The notes under the pieces are model-generated. The model saw only the letters and a list, made by a program, of their open reading frames with translations, had not been told where the DNA came from and searched no databases. DNA of 64,000 bases from a virus: positions 1 through 64,000 of IMG/VR virus record IMGVR_UViG_3300025133_000022; one strand, 5' to 3'. Of the stretch, positions 21,435 to 61,216 are shown in pieces (the first letter of the stretch is position 1; each line of letters starts with the position of its first letter). Made by a program: the position numbers and the translations under genes.

Positions 21435-21821
21435 ATGGAACTAACCCCACAAGAACTAACTCTCTTTGCAGCCAGCGCTAGTGCAGCTGGCTACTTTCTC
21501 AAAAGCTATTTGCTCTACAGAAAGAATAAAGCCATACCTCCTAATGGGCTTCAAGGAGAAATCTATCCACAAGAACACTACCTGTTTGAAAACAGATATG
21601 TCACTATCCAAGATGTCCATCAAGACTATCTTGACATACACCTTTATGAAAAAACTCCTAGATATGACCAGCATACCATTGAAGTTTATCAAAACTCTTT
21701 CAGAAAATCAGCAATACGAGTAACTGCAGACCAAATAGCACAAGAAGTAAATATGCAAGCAATACTTGCTGCTAAACATACCAATGACATGCTAGCTGCA
21801 TATGCTGAGCTAGATAACTAG
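21435..21821 (+). CDS. Hypothetical protein with N-terminal TM
   Basis: GGAG RBS; hydrophobic N-terminus. Confidence 0.65.
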   Translation: MELTPQELTLFAASASAAGYFLKSYLLYRKNKAIPPNGLQGEIYPQEHYLFENRYVTIQDVHQDYLDIHLYEKTPRYDQHTIEVYQNSFRKSAIRVTADQIAQEVNMQAILAAKHTNDMLAAYAELDN

Positions 21822-21843
21822 GGAGGCAAAGCCTCCCTTGTGG
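21821..21843 (+). promoter_or_regulatory. Class II hairpin element (triloop, 8 nt, TGTGG)
   Basis: GGGAGGC-AAA-GCCTCCCT TGTGG. Confidence 0.45.
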
Positions 21844-26202: not shown

Positions 26203-26646
26203 ATGAATCTCAAAGCATTCGCACCATACACCCTGGATCCAAGGACCTGGGGGTCCTGGGTCCCATCAAATCTCTTGCAAAAACATGCTTATGGTAACGA
26301 AAATCCAATTGCCATTGGACACGCTCCTGGAACTGGTTGGTTTATACTAACTAAAGATCCAGAAGAACGAATGCTCTTTTGCGAACACGAAATAGAGCCA
26401 ACAATCAACAACCCAGCTGAAATCAACTGGGGAGTCTGTGGTTTCCCAAGCCTGGAAGGCTCATGTTTAAATGCAATGGCATTGATAACCATTCTGAAAT
26501 TCACTCCTGCAGCAATGAAACAAGTGCTTGGCATGAGTGTCGGAAAAATCAGAAACATTAAAATTCACAATCGAGTGTTTTCATTAAGTAGGATCCACTC
26601 TGATATTTATCGAATTATCAATATCTTAAAAACACCAAAAATCTAA
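26203..26646 (+). CDS. Hypothetical protein, C-terminus weakly RNAP alpha-CTD/HhH-like
   Basis: SCLNAMALITI..LKFT..MKQVLGMSVGKIRNIK. Confidence 0.5.
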   Translation: MNLKAFAPYTLDPRTWGSWVPSNLLQKHAYGNENPIAIGHAPGTGWFILTKDPEERMLFCEHEIEPTINNPAEINWGVCGFPSLEGSCLNAMALITILKFTPAAMKQVLGMSVGKIRNIKIHNRVFSLSRIHSDIYRIINILKTPKI

Positions 26647-26658
26647 TCGGCTCAAATA

Positions 26659-26800
26659 AGTCCCGGCAAAAGTACACAGCAGGGCCTAAATAGACGACTA
26701 GGGGAGATGAGTTTTCTATCTCCAGTAACAAACAGTAGTTCAAGGTCTGAACTGCTCTTGAATAAGAGAACAAAGACCTAATTCGACAAATGCCGGGATT
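26659..26800 (+). ncRNA. Unassigned structured RNA with pseudoknot
   Basis: Closing stem AGTCCCGGCA/TGCCGGGATT, three internal hairpins, loop AGGTC complementary to downstream GACCT. Confidence 0.5.
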
Positions 26801-26859
26801 GAAAGATTCCTAAGACCCTCCGAAAGGAGGGTCTTAAATTGAGAGAACACACCATCTTA

Positions 26860-26887
26860 GCAGCGCGTAGCGCTGCTTGTGGGGTGA
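26860..26887 (+). promoter_or_regulatory. Class II hairpin element
   Basis: GCAGCGC-GTA-GCGCTGCT TGTGGGGTGA. Confidence 0.5.
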
Positions 26888-27070
26888 CAAGGTGTAGCCG
26901 TAGGCGAGAATCACCGAGTCCGTTCAACCAAACAAGACCGACGGTTAAAATGGCCGGTGGACCCGTCTTACCCTCCTTGTAGAGGTACATTTATACAACA
27001 TGCATTTAAAAGCAACTTCCGTACGAAATTGGTACCAGTTTCGACCAGTTGCGCTAATGCAAACGTATAC

Positions 27071-27112
27071 TCATGGGTGGCGCGCAGCGCCACCTGTGGG
27101 GCGAGAGTAGGT
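27071..27112 (+). repeat. 42-nt exact repeat (copy 1) containing a class II hairpin element
   Basis: TCATGGGTGGCGCGCAGCGCCACCTGTGGGGCGAGAGTAGGT, identical to 61175-61216. Confidence 0.9.
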
Positions 27113-28155
27113 GGTTACCTACTCAAGCTTGACTTCATGTCCAAAGGTACTGCAACTCCTAGAGTCCAGAAGCCTGACCACATGAGCAAAGTACATTGAT
27201 CTGAAACTTAGACACTGTTCTCCAAAAAGGAGTCTAGGACGAGGCTCTACAGATCATACCCAAGCCAGGTGTCTGGTCCTTCGGGACAGGGCCCTGGGGC
27301 GGCTTAGCGTCCATTAGGATAATCTGCGGTAACGCAGGAAAGGGAGAACAGACAAACTCCCGCCAATTAGTGCTTGCACTAAGGTCCAGCTAAGCAATCT
27401 CAGACTTCAGGTTAAAACCTGGACTATCACTTCAGTGGTGGGATAGTCGGTAAGTTGTAGGATGGAGAGATAAGCGATGTCTAACCCGGAGCAGTAGCAA
27501 TACTATTCGTAAGGAAGCACGTGAAGAGGTCCTGGGAAGGATTACCTCCATCCAAATCCATGCAACGAACGAGGAAAGTCAAGAGAAGTTGCGTTCATAA
27601 GGAGCAAAGCCAGCTCCCAAATAGTCCAATTGGGTAGAACCATAGGGCACGCAGCAGTACGGAGGATGAAAGGTCACAAACCTGGAATCCAATGACACCG
27701 GTAAAGGCGGCTACGCCGAATGCCACGAGAGAGTGTGGGACTTTGCAAACCAAAAGTTTGCGAACCTACTCGTCAAAGCACTCTCTCAGTCTGGGCTCAC
27801 GCTCGGAGTAAATCGAGCACTCCAAATTAAACAACGGAATCAAAACGCAAAAGTCTTTGACGACTATGAAGTGAAAGCAGCCTAAGACCAAGCCTCAAGA
27901 GGTCCTTGGTGTATGGAGTCCCGCAAGGACAAAATACTTGGTAGCTAGAAAGCATATGTGGACCCGCAATTCCACAAATGCAAGAAAGCGCCGATCAGCT
28001 CATAGTAAGGGAGACTGGAACCCTCAAAAGACCAGTGGCTGTGGCATGTACCTGTGGCAACACAGGTGGACACGTTCTTAGCTATTAGGCCTCGCAGCCT
28101 AATCGGTACGGGAATTAAAGAATGACCACAAGAAGACTTAATCTCAGTCTTCTCT
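27095..28155 (+). ncRNA. Large structured ncRNA, GOLLD-like
   Basis: About 1 kb with no credible long ORF and dense hairpins. Segments GCAATCTCAG, GGTTAAAACCTGGACTATC, GTCTAACCC, GAGTCCCGCAAGG, GNRA hairpin+GGACACG and a terminal TAATCTCA-loop hairpin resemble GOLLD motifs as recalled (not searched). Confidence 0.55.
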
Positions 28156-28558
28156 TCCTTCTCTTTTGTAATCTTGATTTGCAAAAGAGAAATCAGATTA
28201 TGAGGGTGGGTAAAACCACCCTCTAATTTTCTATATCAGGACAAACCATGTTTATTTCAGCCTGCCTTGCCATCTTGGTATATGCTGCTCTAAATAAAGT
28301 TTGCGACTGGCTAGAAAGAACAGGTTGCTTGTTCGCAATCTTGCTTATTTTCGCACTATCAATGTTAGCTTTTAAATGCATTGTAGCTGTTGAGCAAGAA
28401 TTCTGGAGCATTCTAAACCTCTGAGCGATGCATCGCTCATGTCGCTACGGTACACCACTGAACCGTACAGGCTTGGTAACGTCAGAAGAGCTCGAGCAAT
28501 CTTCTTGAAGTCAGCCCGACGAACTACTCACCCTCCAACGCCACCCCTGGAGATCCTC

Positions 28559-29360: not shown

Positions 29361-29920
29361 TGAGTGGCTTAGTCACCCCAATTCCTCTGCAAGTAATTGC
29401 CTTGACGTGGCGCAGAGGCTTTAAACTAAAATTACAGTTCTTGGCGTGTCCCCTAATCTCACGCGTCTGCCGAATTCTAGCAAATTGCCCACCAAGGGAG
29501 TATAGCAAGCTTCCAGAAGCTAGAAGCAGGAACATAAGGGGTTCGCTGGTTGAAAAGCCACGAAGTACGAAAGTACGTAGGGTAAGTCAAGGAAATAATC
29601 AAGCATCCTTGTACCTGAAGAATTTTAGCCAAAACGGCAATCGAATGGTATTCGAAGCTGATATACAAGTAGATGTAAGCCATAGTTAGGTACTTCTATA
29701 CCGGTCAATGCCCTAAGGTAGACTGCAAGAATACAGTCCTATGTTTTCTGCTGGCAACGAGTGCATGCACGGAAAGTTCAGAATTAGAACTGCACTCACC
29801 CTTACCTCTGTGGCCTAATCGGCATAGGCACACGATTCAAAACCGTGCACCCACAACAAGTACACTTAAGTGGAAAGTGAGGGGGATATGAGTTCGAAAC
29901 TCATCAGGGGTTCCACTTCT
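29361..29920 (+). ncRNA. Large structured ncRNA, ROOL-like candidate
   Basis: About 560 nt starting at the TGAG of a class I element. Many GNRA/UNCG-type hairpins; ATTGCCTTG near the 5' end, AGCTGATATACAAGTAGAT centrally, terminal AAGTGGAA/TTCCACTT stem enclosing a T-loop hairpin. Confidence 0.45.
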
Positions 29921-31365: not shown

Positions 31366-32568
31366 ATGCAAACCGAAACCACCATCAATAAGCCCCACTT
31401 CAACATCGGCACCATCGGTCACGTCGACCATGGCAAGACCACGCTGACTGCGGCGATCAGCGCAACCCTGGCCAGCCAGAACGGCGCCAAAGCTGTTGAC
31501 TTCGATCAGATCGACAACGCCCCTGAAGAGAAGGCTCGCGGTATCACCATCAACACCGCACACATCCAGTACGAGACCAGCACGCGTGAGTACGCCCACA
31601 TGGACTGTCCAGGTCACGCCGATTACATCAAGAACATGATCACCGGTGCAGCCCAGATGGACGGCGCTATCCTGCTCGTCGATGGCTCTCAGGGTCCTGA
31701 ACCCCAGACCATCGAGCACATCCTGCTCGCGCGTCAAGTCGGCGTAAAGCACATGGTTGTGTTTGTCAACAAGTGTGACATGCAAGAAGACCCTGAAATC
31801 CTCGAGCTTGTTCAGATGGAAGCCGAAGAGATCCTAGAGAGCAACGACTTCGAAAACGTCACCTTCGTCTTCGGCTCTGCTCTCAAGGCCCTGGAAGCCA
31901 TCCAAGGTGGCGCAGACCACACGGATCCAGCATGCGCATGCATCCTGGACTTGATGCATGCAATCGATCTCATCAAACAGCCCGAGCGAGACCTAAACAG
32001 CCCATTTCGCATGAGCATCGAAGACGTCTTCTCCATCAAAGGCAGAGGAACCGTCGTCACTGGATGTGTCGATCGCGGCAGTGTCAAAGTCGGAGACAAA
32101 GTCGAAATCATCGGCTTTGGAGAAGAACGTGAAGTCGTGGTAACGGGCACGCAGGCATTCCGTAAGGACATCCCTGCTGCCGAAGCCGGCATGAATGTCG
32201 GTCTACTTCTCCGTGGCGTCGCCAAGGACGAAATCAGTACTGGTCAAGTCATGGCGTTCCCCGGCTCCATCAAAAGCTATAAGAATTTCACTTGTGACTT
32301 CTTGACACTAACAGCAGAAGAAGGTGGACGAGTTCATCCGTTCAAACCCGGCTACAAGCCCCAGTTCTTCTTCGGCACAACAAATGTCACCGGCACCATC
32401 CAGACCATCGACAAAGATGGTGTTGAACAGCCGATCTGCACCCCAGGTGACCGCATCACCTGCAACGTAGAGCTGATGAAAGATGCAGGCATGGACGTAG
32501 GTACTCGTTTTGCAGTTCGAGAAGGCAGCCGTACCATCGGTGCAGGTATGATCACCGCTGTCAAGTAA
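31366..32568 (+). CDS. tuf: Elongation factor Tu (divergent)
   Basis: [74 protein letters not shown]. Confidence 0.95.
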
Positions 32569-43248: not shown

Positions 43249-44610
43249 ATGAGCTACCAAGGCATCATAACCACAGTCAAGCTGAAACCACATCCTAGTG
43301 CAGACAAATTACTTCTTGCAGAAGTGGCAGGACACCAGCTAGTCTGCGCCAAGAATGCATACGAAGACGGTGACATCGTCATTTTCTTCCCCGAAGGTGG
43401 CCAACTCAGCCACCCGCTCTGCTGGTACAATGACCTCTACCGAGAAAACAAAGGTGAAAACCGCACACCTAATGTCTATGGATACTTTAGTGAAAATCGT
43501 CGAGTACGCAGCATTAAATTACGTGGTGAAATCTCAGAAGGCTTCATGCTTCCACTCGAAGGCTTGGCTTTCGTTGGCTCAGCCAAACCCCCGAGCGAAC
43601 TCCTTCGTCCCGGCATGCTTATCAACGAACTGCTAGGCAACGAAATCTGCAGAAAATACGAAACCCGTGCAACGAAACAAGCCCGACAAAAAGCAAGTGG
43701 TAAAGCTCGTAAAGACATTAACAACTTTGCCAAGGTTGGACAAACCAGTAAATTCCGCTACGTGATGAACAGCATCCCTAAAGATGCCATCATAACCATA
43801 TCTGAAAAGATTCATGGTACCAGTGGCAGAACCGGTCTTGTTAAAATCAAAGAACGTGTTGACCTACCATACCCCTGGTGGAAGCGTGCTTTGTACTGGA
43901 CTCGAGGACTGTTGCCCAACTGGACTTACGATCCAAAATACGTACCCCACACCCATACGCGAGAATTCAAACACCTCAGTGGCAGTCGCCGTATGATTGT
44001 GGCTCAAGACGAACAAATCTGCAAAACTCGTCCAGATGGTACTCCAATTCCACTTGGTTACCGCAAAAAGATTCACAACGCACTAATCAGCTGCCTCCGC
44101 CCAGGAGAAAGCCTATATTACGAAATCGTAGTGTGTAACGATCAAGGTGTATCCGACTTCCGACAAAAAATCGGCAACAACAAAAGCGACACAGTTCTCA
44201 AAAGTCTTCGAAAGAAATACGATGAACAAATGAACTATAGTTATGGGGTTGCTCCAGGCAGTTACAACATCTGGATATATCGCATCACCATGCAAAACGA
44301 ACGAGGTGATGCGATTCGCCTAGGATGGAATCAAATGACCAAGCGTGCCGCAGAGCTTGGAATTAGTACCGTTCCAGTGCTTGATCAATTCATCTACGAT
44401 GGTGACGCAGAGGCTCTTAACAAACGTCTTGCTCTCATCAGTGATGGACCTAGCACTTTAGACAGCACACACATTCGAGAAGGTGTGTGTGTGCATATCG
44501 ACAGTCCTAAAATGCAAAACGTATTTAAGCGAAAGGGTTTTGCATTTTGTCACTTGGAAGGAATAGCCAAGAACGACGATGAGTACGTTGATCCAGAAGA
44601 CATTGCGTGA
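43249..44610 (+). CDS. ATP-dependent RNA ligase, Rnl5/DRB0094 type
   Basis: N-terminal OB-like PHP.ADKL..FFPEG; motif I EKIHGTS; motif IV REGVC; motif V FKRK. Confidence 0.85.
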   Translation: MSYQGIITTVKLKPHPSADKLLLAEVAGHQLVCAKNAYEDGDIVIFFPEGGQLSHPLCWYNDLYRENKGENRTPNVYGYFSENRRVRSIKLRGEISEGFMLPLEGLAFVGSAKPPSELLRPGMLINELLGNEICRKYETRATKQARQKASGKARKDINNFAKVGQTSKFRYVMNSIPKDAIITISEKIHGTSGRTGLVKIKERVDLPYPWWKRALYWTRGLLPNWTYDPKYVPHTHTREFKHLSGSRRMIVAQDEQICKTRPDGTPIPLGYRKKIHNALISCLRPGESLYYEIVVCNDQGVSDFRQKIGNNKSDTVLKSLRKKYDEQMNYSYGVAPGSYNIWIYRITMQNERGDAIRLGWNQMTKRAAELGISTVPVLDQFIYDGDAEALNKRLALISDGPSTLDSTHIREGVCVHIDSPKMQNVFKRKGFAFCHLEGIAKNDDEYVDPEDIA

Positions 44611-55440: not shown

Positions 55441-57024
55441 ATGCCAAACCCAAACTTATTCCACACCAAAACATCCCAGCCACTAGCCACCAGCCACAAC
55501 AACGCAGGTGGTCGTGCTTACAAAACTTCCGATATGCATGCGCTTGCACAGCTAGCATGCACTGGTGTATTTAACAACACCTACTACACCAAAGCTGAAA
55601 ACCAACTCAAGCAAGCTCGCGCGCTCTGCAAAAAGGTAAGCCCAGCAACAGTTGCACGTATCGCTGTATACTCACGTCAACAAGGCATGATGAAAGACAT
55701 GCCTGTGCTCTTGCTTACCTACTTGTTTTCCATCGAAGACAAGAAATACTTCAATGCCGCATTCCCGTATGTCGTAAACAACATCGGACAGCTACGCAGC
55801 TTTGTGCAAATGGTTCGTAGTGGTGTTTGTGGTCGTCGCTCTCTTGGCTCTGCAGGCAAGCGCGCAATCGCAAACATGCTCAACACCATGACTCCTCGTC
55901 GAATCTTCTGGCAAGCCACTGGCAAAGGTATGAGTTTTGCAGATGTTCTCAAGCTTGCTCATGTAAGACCACAAAGTGCAGCACACGACAGCTTCTTTGC
56001 CTACATGTTAGGTAAAAGTGTTTCTGAAGACTTTGAGAAACTACCAGAAAACATCCAGCACTTCGAATTGTTCAAACGCAAAGAGTACAGCGAAGTACCA
56101 GATGTACCATTTCAACGCCTGACCAATCTAGATCTTAGTGTAATCCAGTGGGGTGAAGTCACGCGCAAAATGACTTGGAACCAGCTTCGTTTCAACCTAA
56201 ACAACCTCACTCGCAAAGGTGTGTTCAAGGACACTCAGCTGGTTCTCGAAGTAGCAACCAAACTTCGCAATCCCAAAGCAGTGCTTGGCAGCAAGGTTTT
56301 GCCATTCAGTCTATACAACACTGTCAAACATCTAGATGACAGTGTTCCACAAGCTCTAAAGAACGCTATGGTCGATGCACTGGAAATCAGCGGACAAAAC
56401 GCCCCTGTGCTTCAAGGCAACACCCTCGTTCTCGTCGACTCTAGTGGCTCTATGAACTCGCCAACAACTGGCTACCGTGCTGGCGCAACCACCACCATGC
56501 GTTGCGTCGAAGCAGCTGGATACTTTGCAGTCAGCATACTCAAAGCCAACCCAGACAGCACCACCATCCTGCCATTTGACGGCCGAGTTCATCCAGTGAA
56601 CTTAAATCCACGTGATAGCATGGCAACCTTAATCAAAAAACTCCCAACTGCAGGCGGAAGCACCAATATTGCTTGCGGTATTGAATGGGCACTACACACA
56701 AGTACAAAATTCAACCAAATCATCATTGTTTCTGACAATGAGAGCTGGGTGAACTCTGATCAATACATGTGGTACAGTCACAAAATCACTGCAACCAAGC
56801 AAGCTTTTGAAAGATACCGTCGTCACAAGAGCCCTGGCTGTAAAATGATTTGTATCAATATTCAGCCAAGCACTACAACAACGCAGGCACCCGATGACAA
56901 AAATACACTAAACGTAGGAGGACTCAGCGACGCAGTCTTCCGTGTTGCTAGCCAATTCCTCACCAGTCGTGGTAACGCGCACTGGGAAGATGTACTTAAC
57001 AAGATTCTTCCGAATCTCAAATAA
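55441..57024 (+). CDS. rsr: TROVE-vWA RNA-binding protein (Ro60/Rsr homolog)
   Basis: N.AGG.AY, LAQLA.TG.FNNTYY, R..G.MKDMP, GRRSLGS..KR, LAH.RP, vWA DSSGSM, GGSTN, SDNE.W. Confidence 0.9.
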   Translation: MPNPNLFHTKTSQPLATSHNNAGGRAYKTSDMHALAQLACTGVFNNTYYTKAENQLKQARALCKKVSPATVARIAVYSRQQGMMKDMPVLLLTYLFSIEDKKYFNAAFPYVVNNIGQLRSFVQMVRSGVCGRRSLGSAGKRAIANMLNTMTPRRIFWQATGKGMSFADVLKLAHVRPQSAAHDSFFAYMLGKSVSEDFEKLPENIQHFELFKRKEYSEVPDVPFQRLTNLDLSVIQWGEVTRKMTWNQLRFNLNNLTRKGVFKDTQLVLEVATKLRNPKAVLGSKVLPFSLYNTVKHLDDSVPQALKNAMVDALEISGQNAPVLQGNTLVLVDSSGSMNSPTTGYRAGATTTMRCVEAAGYFAVSILKANPDSTTILPFDGRVHPVNLNPRDSMATLIKKLPTAGGSTNIACGIEWALHTSTKFNQIIIVSDNESWVNSDQYMWYSHKITATKQAFERYRRHKSPGCKMICINIQPSTTTTQAPDDKNTLNVGGLSDAVFRVASQFLTSRGNAHWEDVLNKILPNLK

Positions 57025-60920: not shown

Positions 60921-61130
60921 ATGACAAGATTTAAAATCGGAGACACAGCAACAAGAACTATTGAGAACTCAGTCGGACATCCAATTGATGTACCTGTCGG
61001 AATTTACATACAAGACAATACTCTTGACACTCACCCAATCCTAGTCATGATGGATCCAATGACTATAACTGACGTACGCAAGTACACAGAAGAACTAGTC
61101 AAAACACTTAACGCAGCTGTACATAAGTGA
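60921..61130 (+). CDS. Hypothetical protein
   Basis: AAGGA RBS. Confidence 0.6.
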   Translation: MTRFKIGDTATRTIENSVGHPIDVPVGIYIQDNTLDTHPILVMMDPMTITDVRKYTEELVKTLNAAVHK

Positions 61131-61156
61131 GGCGTAGCCTCACTTGTGGGGCGAGA
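61129..61156 (+). promoter_or_regulatory. Class II hairpin element
   Basis: GAGGC-GTA-GCCTCACT TGTGGGGCGAGA. Confidence 0.5.
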
Positions 61157-61174
61157 ACAGGTCCTCTTTCACTT

Positions 61175-61216
61175 TCATGGGTGGCGCGCAGCGCCACCTG
61201 TGGGGCGAGAGTAGGT
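61175..61216 (+). repeat. 42-nt exact repeat (copy 2) containing a class II hairpin element
   Basis: Identical to 27071-27112. Confidence 0.9.

What the first reader, a model, noticed from the sequence alone, without database searches (positions are those of the whole stretch)
27095..28155. About 1-kb GOLLD-like giant ncRNA
Seen: more than 1 kb devoid of credible long ORFs, with many hairpins and an H-type pseudoknot (AGGG/CCCT with ACTGG/CCAGT near 28007-28035), a 5' class II element and a terminal AAGAAGAC-TTAATCTCA-GTCTTCT hairpin. Known: GOLLD RNAs are about 800-nt phage-associated RNAs near tRNA genes that can form RNA-only multimers; function unknown. Inference from recalled consensus segments: a GOLLD homolog, longer than typical.
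Basis: partly seen in the sequence, partly recalled or inferred. Interest (0 to 1): 0.8.

Follow-up and report, generated by a model that had tools for sequence, protein, structure and literature searches.

The report
Divergent GOLLD RNA in marine phage
The gene-free stretch is a real but unusually divergent copy of GOLLD, a known giant phage RNA that builds protein-free cages; it sits, as usual, next to the phage's tRNA genes, so it is a new member of a known class, not a new kind of RNA.

Summary
The Rfam GOLLD model (RF02032) matches window 27726-28150 (+) end to end at 156.2 bits (cut-off 150, E 7e-42). That model covers only the conserved 3' half.

The conserved 5' half starts at 27298, not 27095. 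There a 14-nt start motif lies one mismatch from the motif that opens the 5' domain of more than 100 IMG/VR GOLLD loci. It closes a helix (27302-27308 with 27389-27395) whose one changed pair is compensated.

The conserved GOLLD core is therefore 27298-28150, 853 nt. That is ordinary size, since env-38 GOLLD is 833 nt. The "extra" 203 nt (27095-27297) are an unconserved leader behind a hairpin+TGTGGGG element, whose 42 nt recur exactly at 61175-61216. An intrinsic terminator follows at 28202-28232.

Three features are unusual:
- It has the lowest score of the full-length GOLLDs compared here (others 190-305 bits).
- Hairpin P21b is absent.
- About 320 nt of the 5' cap domain align to nothing.

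No close relative and no RNA data were found. Function is inferred from solved GOLLD structures: an RNA-only cage.

This scan has noted GOLLD RNAs many times on other DNA.

The parts
27076..27106 (+). 'Class II' element: 8-bp G+C-rich stem with GCA triloop (27076-27094), then TGTGGGGCGAGA. It is a candidate phage-specific promoter or 5'-end element for the GOLLD unit.
   Evidence: The hairpin and motif were found by script. The 42 nt 27071-27112 are identical to 61175-61216 and 74% identical to 61121-61162. Independent metagenome contigs break at this repeat and show the other copy's flanks. The role is inferred, not shown.
27095..27297 (+). 203-nt leader between the element and the conserved GOLLD start. 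It is moderately structured and resembles no other GOLLD locus.
   Evidence: Fold z-score -2.5. No blastn or nhmmer match in 154 loci. No Rfam match at E<=5. No significant pairing with the 3' trailer.
27298..27402 (+). GOLLD 5' sub-domain 1 (my numbering: P2-P5). It comprises the start motif GGCGGCTTAGCGTC, the closing helix 27302-27308/27389-27395, and three to four hairpins inside it.
   Evidence: The motif is unique in the 192-kb genome at <=1 mismatch. The same motif opens the 5' domain in 111 IMG/VR loci. The helix is 100% paired in 15 sequences, with U-A replaced by C-G in the window, L056 and L086. Covariance models of the env-38-like 5' domain place their best window hit here, but weakly (E about 0.17).
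27403..27725 (+). The rest of the 5' (cap) domain, about 320 nt. It is well folded but cannot be aligned to any GOLLD 5' domain examined.
   Evidence: The whole 5' domain (27298-27725) folds with z -4.1. The 5'-domain models R1 and R2 give no hit here, and blastn/nhmmer give none.
27726..27788 (+). P13/P14 hairpin, with the conserved CAAAA loop at 27751-27755.
   Evidence: Rfam alignment, model positions 1-62. L14 makes an inter-subunit minor-groove contact in solved GOLLD cages (PMC12286853; PMC12990946).
27789..27846 (+). Variable linker J13/15. It contains one small hairpin and no embedded tRNA.
   Evidence: Rfam alignment. ARAGORN finds no tRNA here.
27847..28150 (+). Conserved GOLLD 3' core. 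It holds GCAAAAGTCTT, the J17/18 segment GAAAG..CTAA, helices P17-P27, the L22-J17/22 pseudoknot (28008-28036), a GCAA tetraloop on P24, and P27 with loop TTAATCTCA. Hairpin P21b is missing, and the P25/26 loop carries a 29-nt insertion.
   Evidence: Rfam RF02032 alignment: full model length, 14 'v' marks (about 7 non-standard pairs). P21b is also absent from L044 and L047 and from S. agalactiae GOLLD (PMC12990946).
28154..28232 (+). 3' trailer: CTTCCTT directly after P27, a hairpin at about 28159-28191, then an intrinsic terminator (stem 28202-28223 plus a T run).
   Evidence: Terminator scan. The MFE fold shows both hairpins. Relatives have the same order, P27 then CTTCCTT then terminator, in 23 of 37 distinct loci.

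Best explanation
This is a genuine gene for a GOLLD RNA in an uncultured 192.5-kb marine phage.

Shown:
- The 3' domain (27726-28150) matches the curated GOLLD model over its whole length.
- The 5' domain starts at 27298 with the motif and covarying helix that open the 5' domain of the large env-38-like phage clade.
- A terminator follows at 28202-28232.
- The locus heads the phage's tRNA and small-RNA island.

Inferred:
- Transcription starts at or just after the hairpin+TGTGGGG element at 27076-27106, possibly by one of the phage's own two-barrel RNA polymerases. That would give a primary RNA of about 1.1 kb, of which 853 nt form the conserved fold.
- By homology with the three solved GOLLD assemblies (env-38 14-mer; S. 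agalactiae 12-mer; its 3' domain alone mainly a 10-mer), the RNA is expected to self-assemble without protein. The product would be a dihedral cage in which 3' domains form the rings and 5' domains form the caps.
- This copy lacks P21b and has a different, larger cap, so its subunit number may differ.
- The biological role is unknown for the whole family. The most likely role here is in the phage's translation and tRNA programme during lytic growth, for example as a scaffold or container. The reasons are that the gene is co-located and co-oriented with at least 11 tRNAs, Y-RNA-like genes, and genes for an EF-Tu-like protein and an RNA ligase.
For: - Rfam RF02032: 156.2 bits against a cut-off of 150, E 7e-42, model 1-416 of 416, no other family at E<=5.
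- Retained hallmarks: P14 CAAAA loop, GCAAAAGTCTT, GAAAG..CTAA, P17, P22 with its pseudoknot, GNRA loop on P24, and P27/L27.
- The pseudoknot pair covaries in relatives, AU 7 and CG 7.
- The 5' start motif is unique in the genome and shared with 111 IMG/VR loci.
- The closing helix is 100% paired, with a compensated change in the window.
- The 5' domain folds at z -4.1.
- Terminator at 28202-28232. Relatives show the same P27, CTTCCTT, terminator order.
- Virus record judged 100% complete by CheckV. tRNAs lie downstream on the same strand.
- Cage formation, and its dependence on the 5' cap and on P21b: PMC12286853 and PMC12990946.
Against: - The score is only 6 bits above the cut-off and is the lowest of the full-length GOLLDs compared (others 190-305 bits).
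- P21b is absent. In env-38 it forms one of the kissing loops that join the two half-shells.
- About 320 nt of the cap domain match no known GOLLD 5' domain, so the cap contacts cannot be checked.
- I could not identify the L20-J13/15 (L15-L20') kissing loop.
- No relative with the same 5' domain was found, so the new part has no covariation support.
- The promoter role of the hairpin element is pure inference.
Confidence: 0.85

Rival explanations
1. The mature RNA is the whole 1.06-1.14 kb (27095 to about 28155-28232). The 203-nt leader would then be an integral extra domain, making this a truly enlarged GOLLD.
For: - The leader begins with an element that also opens another non-coding tract at 61.2 kb.
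- The leader is moderately structured, z -2.5.
- Relatives also carry 60-130 nt between their promoter and the start motif.
- The env-38 construct of 833 nt appears to include about 100 nt upstream of the motif. This is inferred from L033 coordinates.
Against: - The leader resembles no other GOLLD locus and matches no model.
- Homology with the family starts sharply at 27298.
- The leader does not pair significantly with the trailer.
- The 5' end has not been mapped.
Confidence: 0.3
2. It is a decaying GOLLD relic: it is recognisable by homology but no longer folds or assembles.
For: - It has the lowest score among the full-length GOLLDs compared.
- P21b is lost.
- No relatives with the same 5' domain were found.
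Against: - About 7 pairs, by my count of roughly 93 aligned, are non-standard, and every conserved loop and junction motif is intact.
- The pseudoknot is retained and is even longer, at 4 bp.
- The changed base in the 5' closing helix is compensated.
- The fold is strong, z -4.1.
- The terminator is intact.
- Loss of P21b also occurs in functional, cage-forming S. agalactiae GOLLD.
Confidence: 0.05
3. It is not GOLLD but a new large RNA or a coding region, and the Rfam hit is spurious.
For: The score is close to the cut-off. Sequence-only searches barely detect it (nhmmer E 8e-5 to two loci).
Against: - E 7e-42 over the full model with the structure preserved.
- The same family search over 14 control genomes gave no match.
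- The 5' motif and covarying helix give independent support.
- ORFs are at most 80 aa and match no family.
Confidence: 0.02

Closest known systems
GOLLD env-38 (marine metagenome, 833 nt; 14-mer cage, PDB 9MEE; Kretsch et al. 2025, PMC12286853) and its IMG/VR relatives (L032-L043, L051-L152 here)
   Same: - Full 3'-domain architecture: P13/14 with the CAAAA loop, linker, GCAAAAGUCUU, P17-P27, the L22 pseudoknot and L27.
- The same 5' start motif and closing helix with the inner hairpins.
- The same P27, CUUCCUU, terminator order.
- Marine phage origin.
   Different: - The window scores 156 bits against about 290-305.
- It lacks P21b.
- Its 5' domain is 428 nt against about 323 nt, and only the first 100-125 nt can be aligned.
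- It has no upstream tRNA-Met, no GTTCTTTGAA box and no sigma-70- or Bacteroidota-type promoter. A hairpin+TGTGGGG element stands there instead.
Streptococcus agalactiae GOLLD (700 nt; 12-mer, PDB 9L0R; its 3' domain alone mainly a 10-mer, 9LMF; reviewed in PMC12990946) and the Lactobacillales-type loci L044-L046 here
   Same: - P21b is absent.
- The window's 3' domain is nearest by sequence to L030/L046, the same record as L046 of this L044-L046 group (nhmmer E 8e-5).
- Both lie near tRNA arrays.
   Different: - Those loci lack the GGCGGYTTAGCG start motif.
- They are prophage- or chromosome-borne in Firmicutes.
- Their 5' domain is reduced, while the window's is enlarged.
ROOL RNA (phage and prophage large RNA; 6- to 8-mer cages)
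   Same: A large ornate phage RNA near tRNA islands that forms an RNA-only cage.
   Different: Sequence and fold are unrelated. Nothing but GOLLD matched in the Rfam scan at E<=5.

Membership tests
GOLLD RNA (Rfam RF02032) | Covariance-model score at or above the curated gathering score, over the whole model | tested here: met
   156.2 bits against 150, E 7e-42, model 1-416 of 416, not truncated. The margin is small: relatives score 190-305.
GOLLD RNA (Rfam RF02032) | P13/P14 hairpin with the conserved A-rich loop (CAAAA), followed by a variable linker (J13/15) | tested here: met
   Hairpin 27726-27788 with loop CAAAA at 27751-55. Linker 27789-27846 with no tRNA.
GOLLD RNA (Rfam RF02032) | Conserved single-stranded segments GCAAAAGUCUU and GAAAG..CUAA, flanking the long-range helix P17 | tested here: met
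   Exact GCAAAAGTCTT at 27847-27857. GAAAG and CCTAAG follow, and the P17 strands pair.
GOLLD RNA (Rfam RF02032) | L22-J17/22 pseudoknot | tested here: met
   AGGG 28008-11 pairs with CCCT 28021-24 around P22. The homologous pair covaries in relatives, AU 7 and CG 7, with 0 of 500 shuffles as high.
GOLLD RNA (Rfam RF02032) | P21a and P21b hairpins, the symmetric kissing loops that join the half-shells in env-38 | tested here: not met
   P21a is present, with a loop that contains GC (27958-27975). P21b (model positions 249-265) is deleted. This feature is not universal: it is absent in L044 and L047 and in cage-forming S. agalactiae GOLLD. Its absence therefore does not exclude membership.
GOLLD RNA (Rfam RF02032) | P23-P27 with a GNRA loop on P24 and the terminal P27 loop UAAUCUCA | tested here: met
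   GCAA loop on P24. P27 at 28131-28153 with loop TTAATCTCA. The P25/26 loop carries a 29-nt insertion.
GOLLD RNA (Rfam RF02032) | Structured 5' domain upstream of P13 (variable between subgroups) | tested here: inconclusive
   The first 100-125 nt are homologous to the env-38-like clade, through the motif and the covarying helix. The remaining 320 nt or so are well folded (z -4.1) but cannot be aligned.
GOLLD RNA (Rfam RF02032) | Encoded in a phage or prophage, usually beside tRNA genes | tested here: met
   IMG/VR virus record of 192,537 bp, CheckV 100%. There are 11-12 tRNAs downstream on the same strand, the first at 29804.
GOLLD RNA (Rfam RF02032) | Self-assembly into an RNA-only dihedral cage (10-, 12- or 14-mer) | not testable with these tools
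   Known only from cryo-EM and mass photometry of other members (PMC12286853, PMC12990946).
GOLLD RNA (Rfam RF02032) | Expressed as RNA, rising in lytic growth | not testable with these tools
   Only DNA runs hold the sequence.
ROOL RNA (Rfam) | Match to the ROOL covariance model | tested here: not met
   GOLLD is the only family found in 26400-28400 at E<=5.

The most novel reading that the evidence does not exclude
This is a distinct GOLLD subtype. It combines an env-38-type entry module (P2-P5) and a P21b-less 3' ring with a rebuilt, roughly 100-nt larger cap domain. It would therefore assemble into a cage with a subunit number or geometry not yet seen. It would be transcribed not by the host polymerase but by the phage's own two-barrel RNA polymerase, from a hairpin+TGTGGGG promoter shared with the Y-RNA/tRNA-like array at 61 kb. 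That would place GOLLD in one co-regulated phage non-coding-RNA regulon.
Probability: 0.25. Interest if true: 0.55.

Novelty: new member of a known kind. Interest (0 to 1): 0.3.

Why it matters
GOLLD is one of the largest bacterial or phage non-coding RNAs. It is now known to form protein-free cages, yet its function is still unknown.

This copy adds a very divergent data point. Published structures link the subunit number (10, 12 or 14) to two features, hairpin P21b and the 5' cap. Here those features occur in a new combination, so a single in-vitro assembly experiment would test that structural rule.

Its setting could also help frame functional hypotheses. The phage carries its own RNA polymerases, an EF-Tu-like gene, an RNA ligase, Ro60/Y-RNA-like genes and a large tRNA set. 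GOLLD appears to share an upstream element with another non-coding locus.

In itself, finding a GOLLD RNA next to tRNAs in a marine phage is expected.

Tried and rejected
- Close relatives by DNA. blastn of 26600-28250 against 50,697 GenBank phages gave no match.
- Related phages by protein. The upstream ORF and the 1090-aa RNA polymerase as queries in IMG/VR found nothing.
- Window-type GOLLD relatives:
  - Two metagenome scans gave 0 hits. One used the start motif with the window-specific TAGGATAA. The other used the start motif with P13 at the window's spacing.
  - A P13-specific pattern in IMG/VR gave 27 hits, about the number I estimate from chance. One (L155) could not be searched. None of the 17 records searched contains GOLLD.
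  - The 5' start motif gave 0 hits in genome contigs (one genome for each of 185,579 bacterial and archaeal species).
- Covariance models of the env-38-like 5' domain (R1, R2). They hit the window only weakly at 27295-27429 (9.9 and 4.5 bits, E about 0.17). This supports placing the start there only together with the motif and helix evidence, and it says nothing about the rest of the domain.
- Sequencing runs. No RNA holder is listed. Three marine DNA metagenomes from three studies hold the stretch, or parts of it, with no differences, so there is no variation to test for covariation.
- Leader-trailer processing stem, as in rRNA operons. The duplex energy is not better than shuffles (47 of 300 shuffles as good). 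Rejected.
- Embedded tRNA in the linker. None found.
- Coding reading. Small ORFs of at most 80 aa on both strands match no Pfam or PHROG family.
- Host-type promoters. There is no sigma-70 promoter directly upstream (one weak site at 26884-26911). The Bacteroidota-type TAnnTTTG motif and the relatives' GTTCTTTGAA box are also absent.
- The published GOLLD alignment (a supplement of PMC12286853). In the passages read it begins at the same 3'-domain consensus as the Rfam model, so it gave no 5'-domain reference.
- The L20-J13/15 kissing loop. I could not map it with confidence from text alone, so it is left untested.

Full report
**Observation.** The stretch between the stop of ORF 26203-26646 and the ATG at 28248 holds only short ORFs, at most 80 aa on either strand. 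None matches Pfam or PHROGs.
- the interleaved AGGG/CCCT and ACTGG/CCAGT pairings at 28008-28036;
- the terminal hairpin 28131-28153 with loop TTAATCTCA;
- a G+C-rich triloop hairpin followed by TGTGGGG at 27076-27101.

**The decisive test.** A scan of the whole window against Rfam 15 gives one non-tRNA match. RF02032 (GOLLD) hits 27726-28150 on the + strand at 156.2 bits against a gathering score of 150, with E 7e-42. The match covers model positions 1-416 of 416 and is not truncated. A permissive scan of 26400-28400 at E<=5 finds nothing else, so no ROOL and no other family. The same search on the complete record finds this single copy, and the same search over 14 control genomes gives no match. 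The record is an IMG/VR virus contig of 192,537 bp that CheckV rates as complete.

**Retained hallmarks of the 3' domain.**
- The P13/P14 hairpin with its CAAAA loop.
- A 58-nt linker.
- An exact GCAAAAGTCTT.
- The GAAAG..CTAA junction.
- The long-range helix P17.
- P22 with its pseudoknot.
- A GCAA tetraloop on P24.
- P27 with the UAAUCUCA-type loop.

Fourteen 'v' marks, about seven pairs, are non-standard. Two differences stand out. The hairpin at model positions 249-265 is deleted, and the P25/26 loop carries a 29-nt insertion.

I aligned the 3' domains of 14 diverse IMG/VR relatives (A4) and counted the corresponding pseudoknot pair. It is A-U in seven and C-G in seven, the neighbouring G-C never varies, and no shuffle of 500 reaches the observed covariation score. 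MAFFT places the window's 5' pseudoknot strand four columns off. Read directly from the sequence, the window forms four pairs with the same two-nucleotide spacing to P22.

**Where the RNA really begins.** The Rfam model covers only the conserved 3' half. In the passages I read, the published alignment starts at the same 3'-domain consensus. To find the 5' half I collected GOLLD loci from IMG/VR with a core-motif pattern and confirmed them with RF02032 (17 loci at 190-305 bits).

Twelve of them form an env-38-like group. Several lie just after a tRNA-Met gene, as published for env-38. Their conserved upstream sequence starts about 323-329 nt before P13, with GGCGGTTTAGCGTC. The window has GGCGGCTTAGCGTC at 27298. 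This is the only match with at most one mismatch in the whole 192-kb genome on either strand.

A pattern search with this motif found 111 IMG/VR stretches. Nearly all have a GOLLD core 420-450 nt downstream. RNAalifold on 14 diverse representatives pairs GUUUAG of the motif with CUAAAC about 90 nt downstream. In the window the T-to-C change in the motif is matched by A-to-G in the partner, GCTAAGC at 27389-27395. L056 and L086 show the same double change. Over 15 sequences the helix is 100% paired, and that pair is U-A in 12 and C-G in 3.

Inside the helix the window has the same order of elements as the relatives: a hairpin with a GNRA-type loop, AAAGGG, and two further hairpins.

Covariance models of the env-38-like 5' domain place their best window hit here, but only weakly (9.9 and 4.5 bits, E about 0.17). 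They find nothing in 27403-27725. blastn and nhmmer against all 154 loci also find nothing there.

**Size.**
- The conserved GOLLD fold spans 27298-28150, which is 853 nt.
- Its first 100-125 nt are homologous to the env-38 clade.
- The next 320 nt or so are well folded (z -4.1 for the whole 5' domain) but cannot be aligned.
- The 5' domain is 428 nt, against about 323 nt in the env-38-like group.
- The whole core is close to the published 833 nt of env-38. From the coordinates in L033 (tRNA-Met end to model end is 833 nt), that figure appears to include about 100 nt upstream of the motif.
- "Longer than typical" therefore holds only modestly, and only for the cap domain.

**Flanks.** The 203 nt from 27095 to 27297 are a leader with no similarity to anything examined. 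It has moderate fold stability, z -2.5. It opens with an 8-bp stem and a GCA triloop followed by TGTGGGGCGAGA.

- The 42 nt 27071-27112 are identical to 61175-61216 and 74% identical to 61121-61162.
- A further copy lies at 26859-26887, and weaker ones at 21821 and 67286.
- Contigs of two independent marine runs stop at the repeat and carry the flanks of the other copy. The repeat is therefore real and not an assembly artefact.

Downstream, P27 is followed at once by CTTCCTT, then a hairpin, then an intrinsic terminator at 28202-28232. Relatives show the same order in 23 of 37 distinct downstream sequences, which supports this 3' boundary.

Upstream, relatives carry a sigma-70-type or Bacteroidota-type (TAnnTTTG) promoter and a conserved GTTCTTTGAA box 15-100 nt before the motif. 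The window has none of these. Earlier notes of this scan report two phage-encoded two-barrel RNA polymerases of the P23-45 type in this genome (I did not test this). In P23-45 the non-virion enzyme uses G+C-rich promoters (PMC10770324). That the hairpin+TGTGGGG element is such a promoter is therefore a reasonable inference, but it is untested. A leader-trailer processing stem was tested and rejected.

**How it most likely works.** No tool here can show function. By homology the RNA should behave like the solved GOLLDs. Env-38 forms a closed D7 14-mer of 380 Å in which the 3' domains form rings and the 5' domains form caps. It is stable at nanomolar concentration (PMC12286853). S. agalactiae GOLLD forms a 12-mer, and its 3' domain alone forms mainly a 10-mer. 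The review attributes the different stoichiometries to differences in the 5' domain and to P21b (PMC12990946).

By my mapping, model positions 233-245 are P21a and 249-265 are P21b. The window keeps P21a, with a GC-containing loop, and lacks P21b. The same is true of L044 and L047 here and of S. agalactiae GOLLD.

The window thus combines three things: an env-38-type entry module, a P21b-less ring and a unique, larger cap. I expect a cage, but I cannot predict its subunit number. I could not map the L20-J13/15 kissing loop.

The biological role of GOLLD is unknown. Published hints are a rise in expression during phage lysis, ribosome pull-down, and tRNAs embedded in the linker. Here the gene heads a same-strand island of tRNAs. 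That island also holds genes for an EF-Tu-like protein, an RNA ligase and a PHROG 'RNA-binding protein'. A role in the phage's translation or tRNA programme is the most likely one. This is inference.

**Relatives and expression.** No close relative was found in GenBank phages, IMG/VR, JGI metagenomes or genome contigs, which holds one genome for each of 185,579 prokaryote species. The stretch, or parts of it, occurs without any difference in three marine DNA metagenomes from three studies. No RNA run is listed.

**Verdict.**
- The boundaries are refined. The core is 27298-28150. The likely transcription unit runs from about 27095 to 28232.
- This is a new and very divergent member of a known family, with a variant cap domain.
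- It is not a new kind of RNA.
- GOLLD RNAs have been noted many times by this scan on other DNA.

Noticed in passing
window 27071-27112 and 61175-61216 (also 26859-26887, 61129-61154, 21821-21843; genome 67286): A hairpin (8 bp, GNA triloop) is followed at once by TGTGG(GG). Two copies are identical over 42 nt although they lie 34 kb apart. Tandem pairs of the element precede both non-coding tracts, GOLLD and the tract at 61.2 kb. Independent metagenome contigs break at the repeat. It is a candidate phage-polymerase promoter or RNA 5'-end module.
   Followed up: partly
window 26647-27075: A further 430 nt or so of non-coding sequence lies upstream of the GOLLD leader. It holds a terminator-like hairpin at 26814-26840, then another hairpin+TGTGGGG copy, then about 200 nt with fold z -2.4. 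It matches no Rfam family and no relative. It may be a separate small RNA or a second start for the same unit.
   Followed up: partly
window 28154-28160; relatives such as L004, L051, L059, L064: A CTTCCTT motif (ACCTTCCTTAACCTC in many relatives) lies between GOLLD P27 and the intrinsic terminator in 23 of 37 distinct relatives, and directly after P27 in the window. It resembles the pyrimidine-rich 3' end of 16S rRNA (the anti-Shine-Dalgarno region). Its meaning is unknown.
   Followed up: partly
IMG/VR loci L002-L152, upstream of the GOLLD start motif: Env-38-like GOLLD genes carry a conserved GTTCTTTGAA box 15-100 nt upstream of the GGCGG start. Many also have a Bacteroidota-type TAnnTTTG -7 box, while others have TTGACA/TATACT. 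This suggests the clade spans phages of different host phyla. The start motif is found in 111 IMG/VR stretches but in none of 185,579 prokaryote species genomes.
   Followed up: partly
L052, L073, L153, L154: Four IMG/VR loci carry the GOLLD start motif followed by TGGCGCTAGATAA. In L153, the only one long enough to check, no GOLLD core follows and the downstream sequence looks coding. This may be a remnant or a chance match.
   Followed up: no
window 29804-29912: Rfam calls a tRNA here (40.9 bits) that ARAGORN does not report. It is 109 nt long, so it is probably an unusual tRNA or one that contains an insertion.
   Followed up: no
window 31366-32568, 43249-44610, 55441-57024: The tRNA island downstream of GOLLD holds three genes with PHROG matches: a translation elongation factor-like protein, an RNA ligase (phrog_968) and an 'RNA-binding protein' (phrog_850). 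Together with GOLLD they make up a phage RNA and translation toolkit.
   Followed up: no
L047 and L048 (IMG/VR): Two divergent GOLLD loci carry a complete tRNA (Gln-CTG and Pro-AGG) inside the J13/15 linker, as published for some GOLLDs. The window's linker has none.
   Followed up: partly
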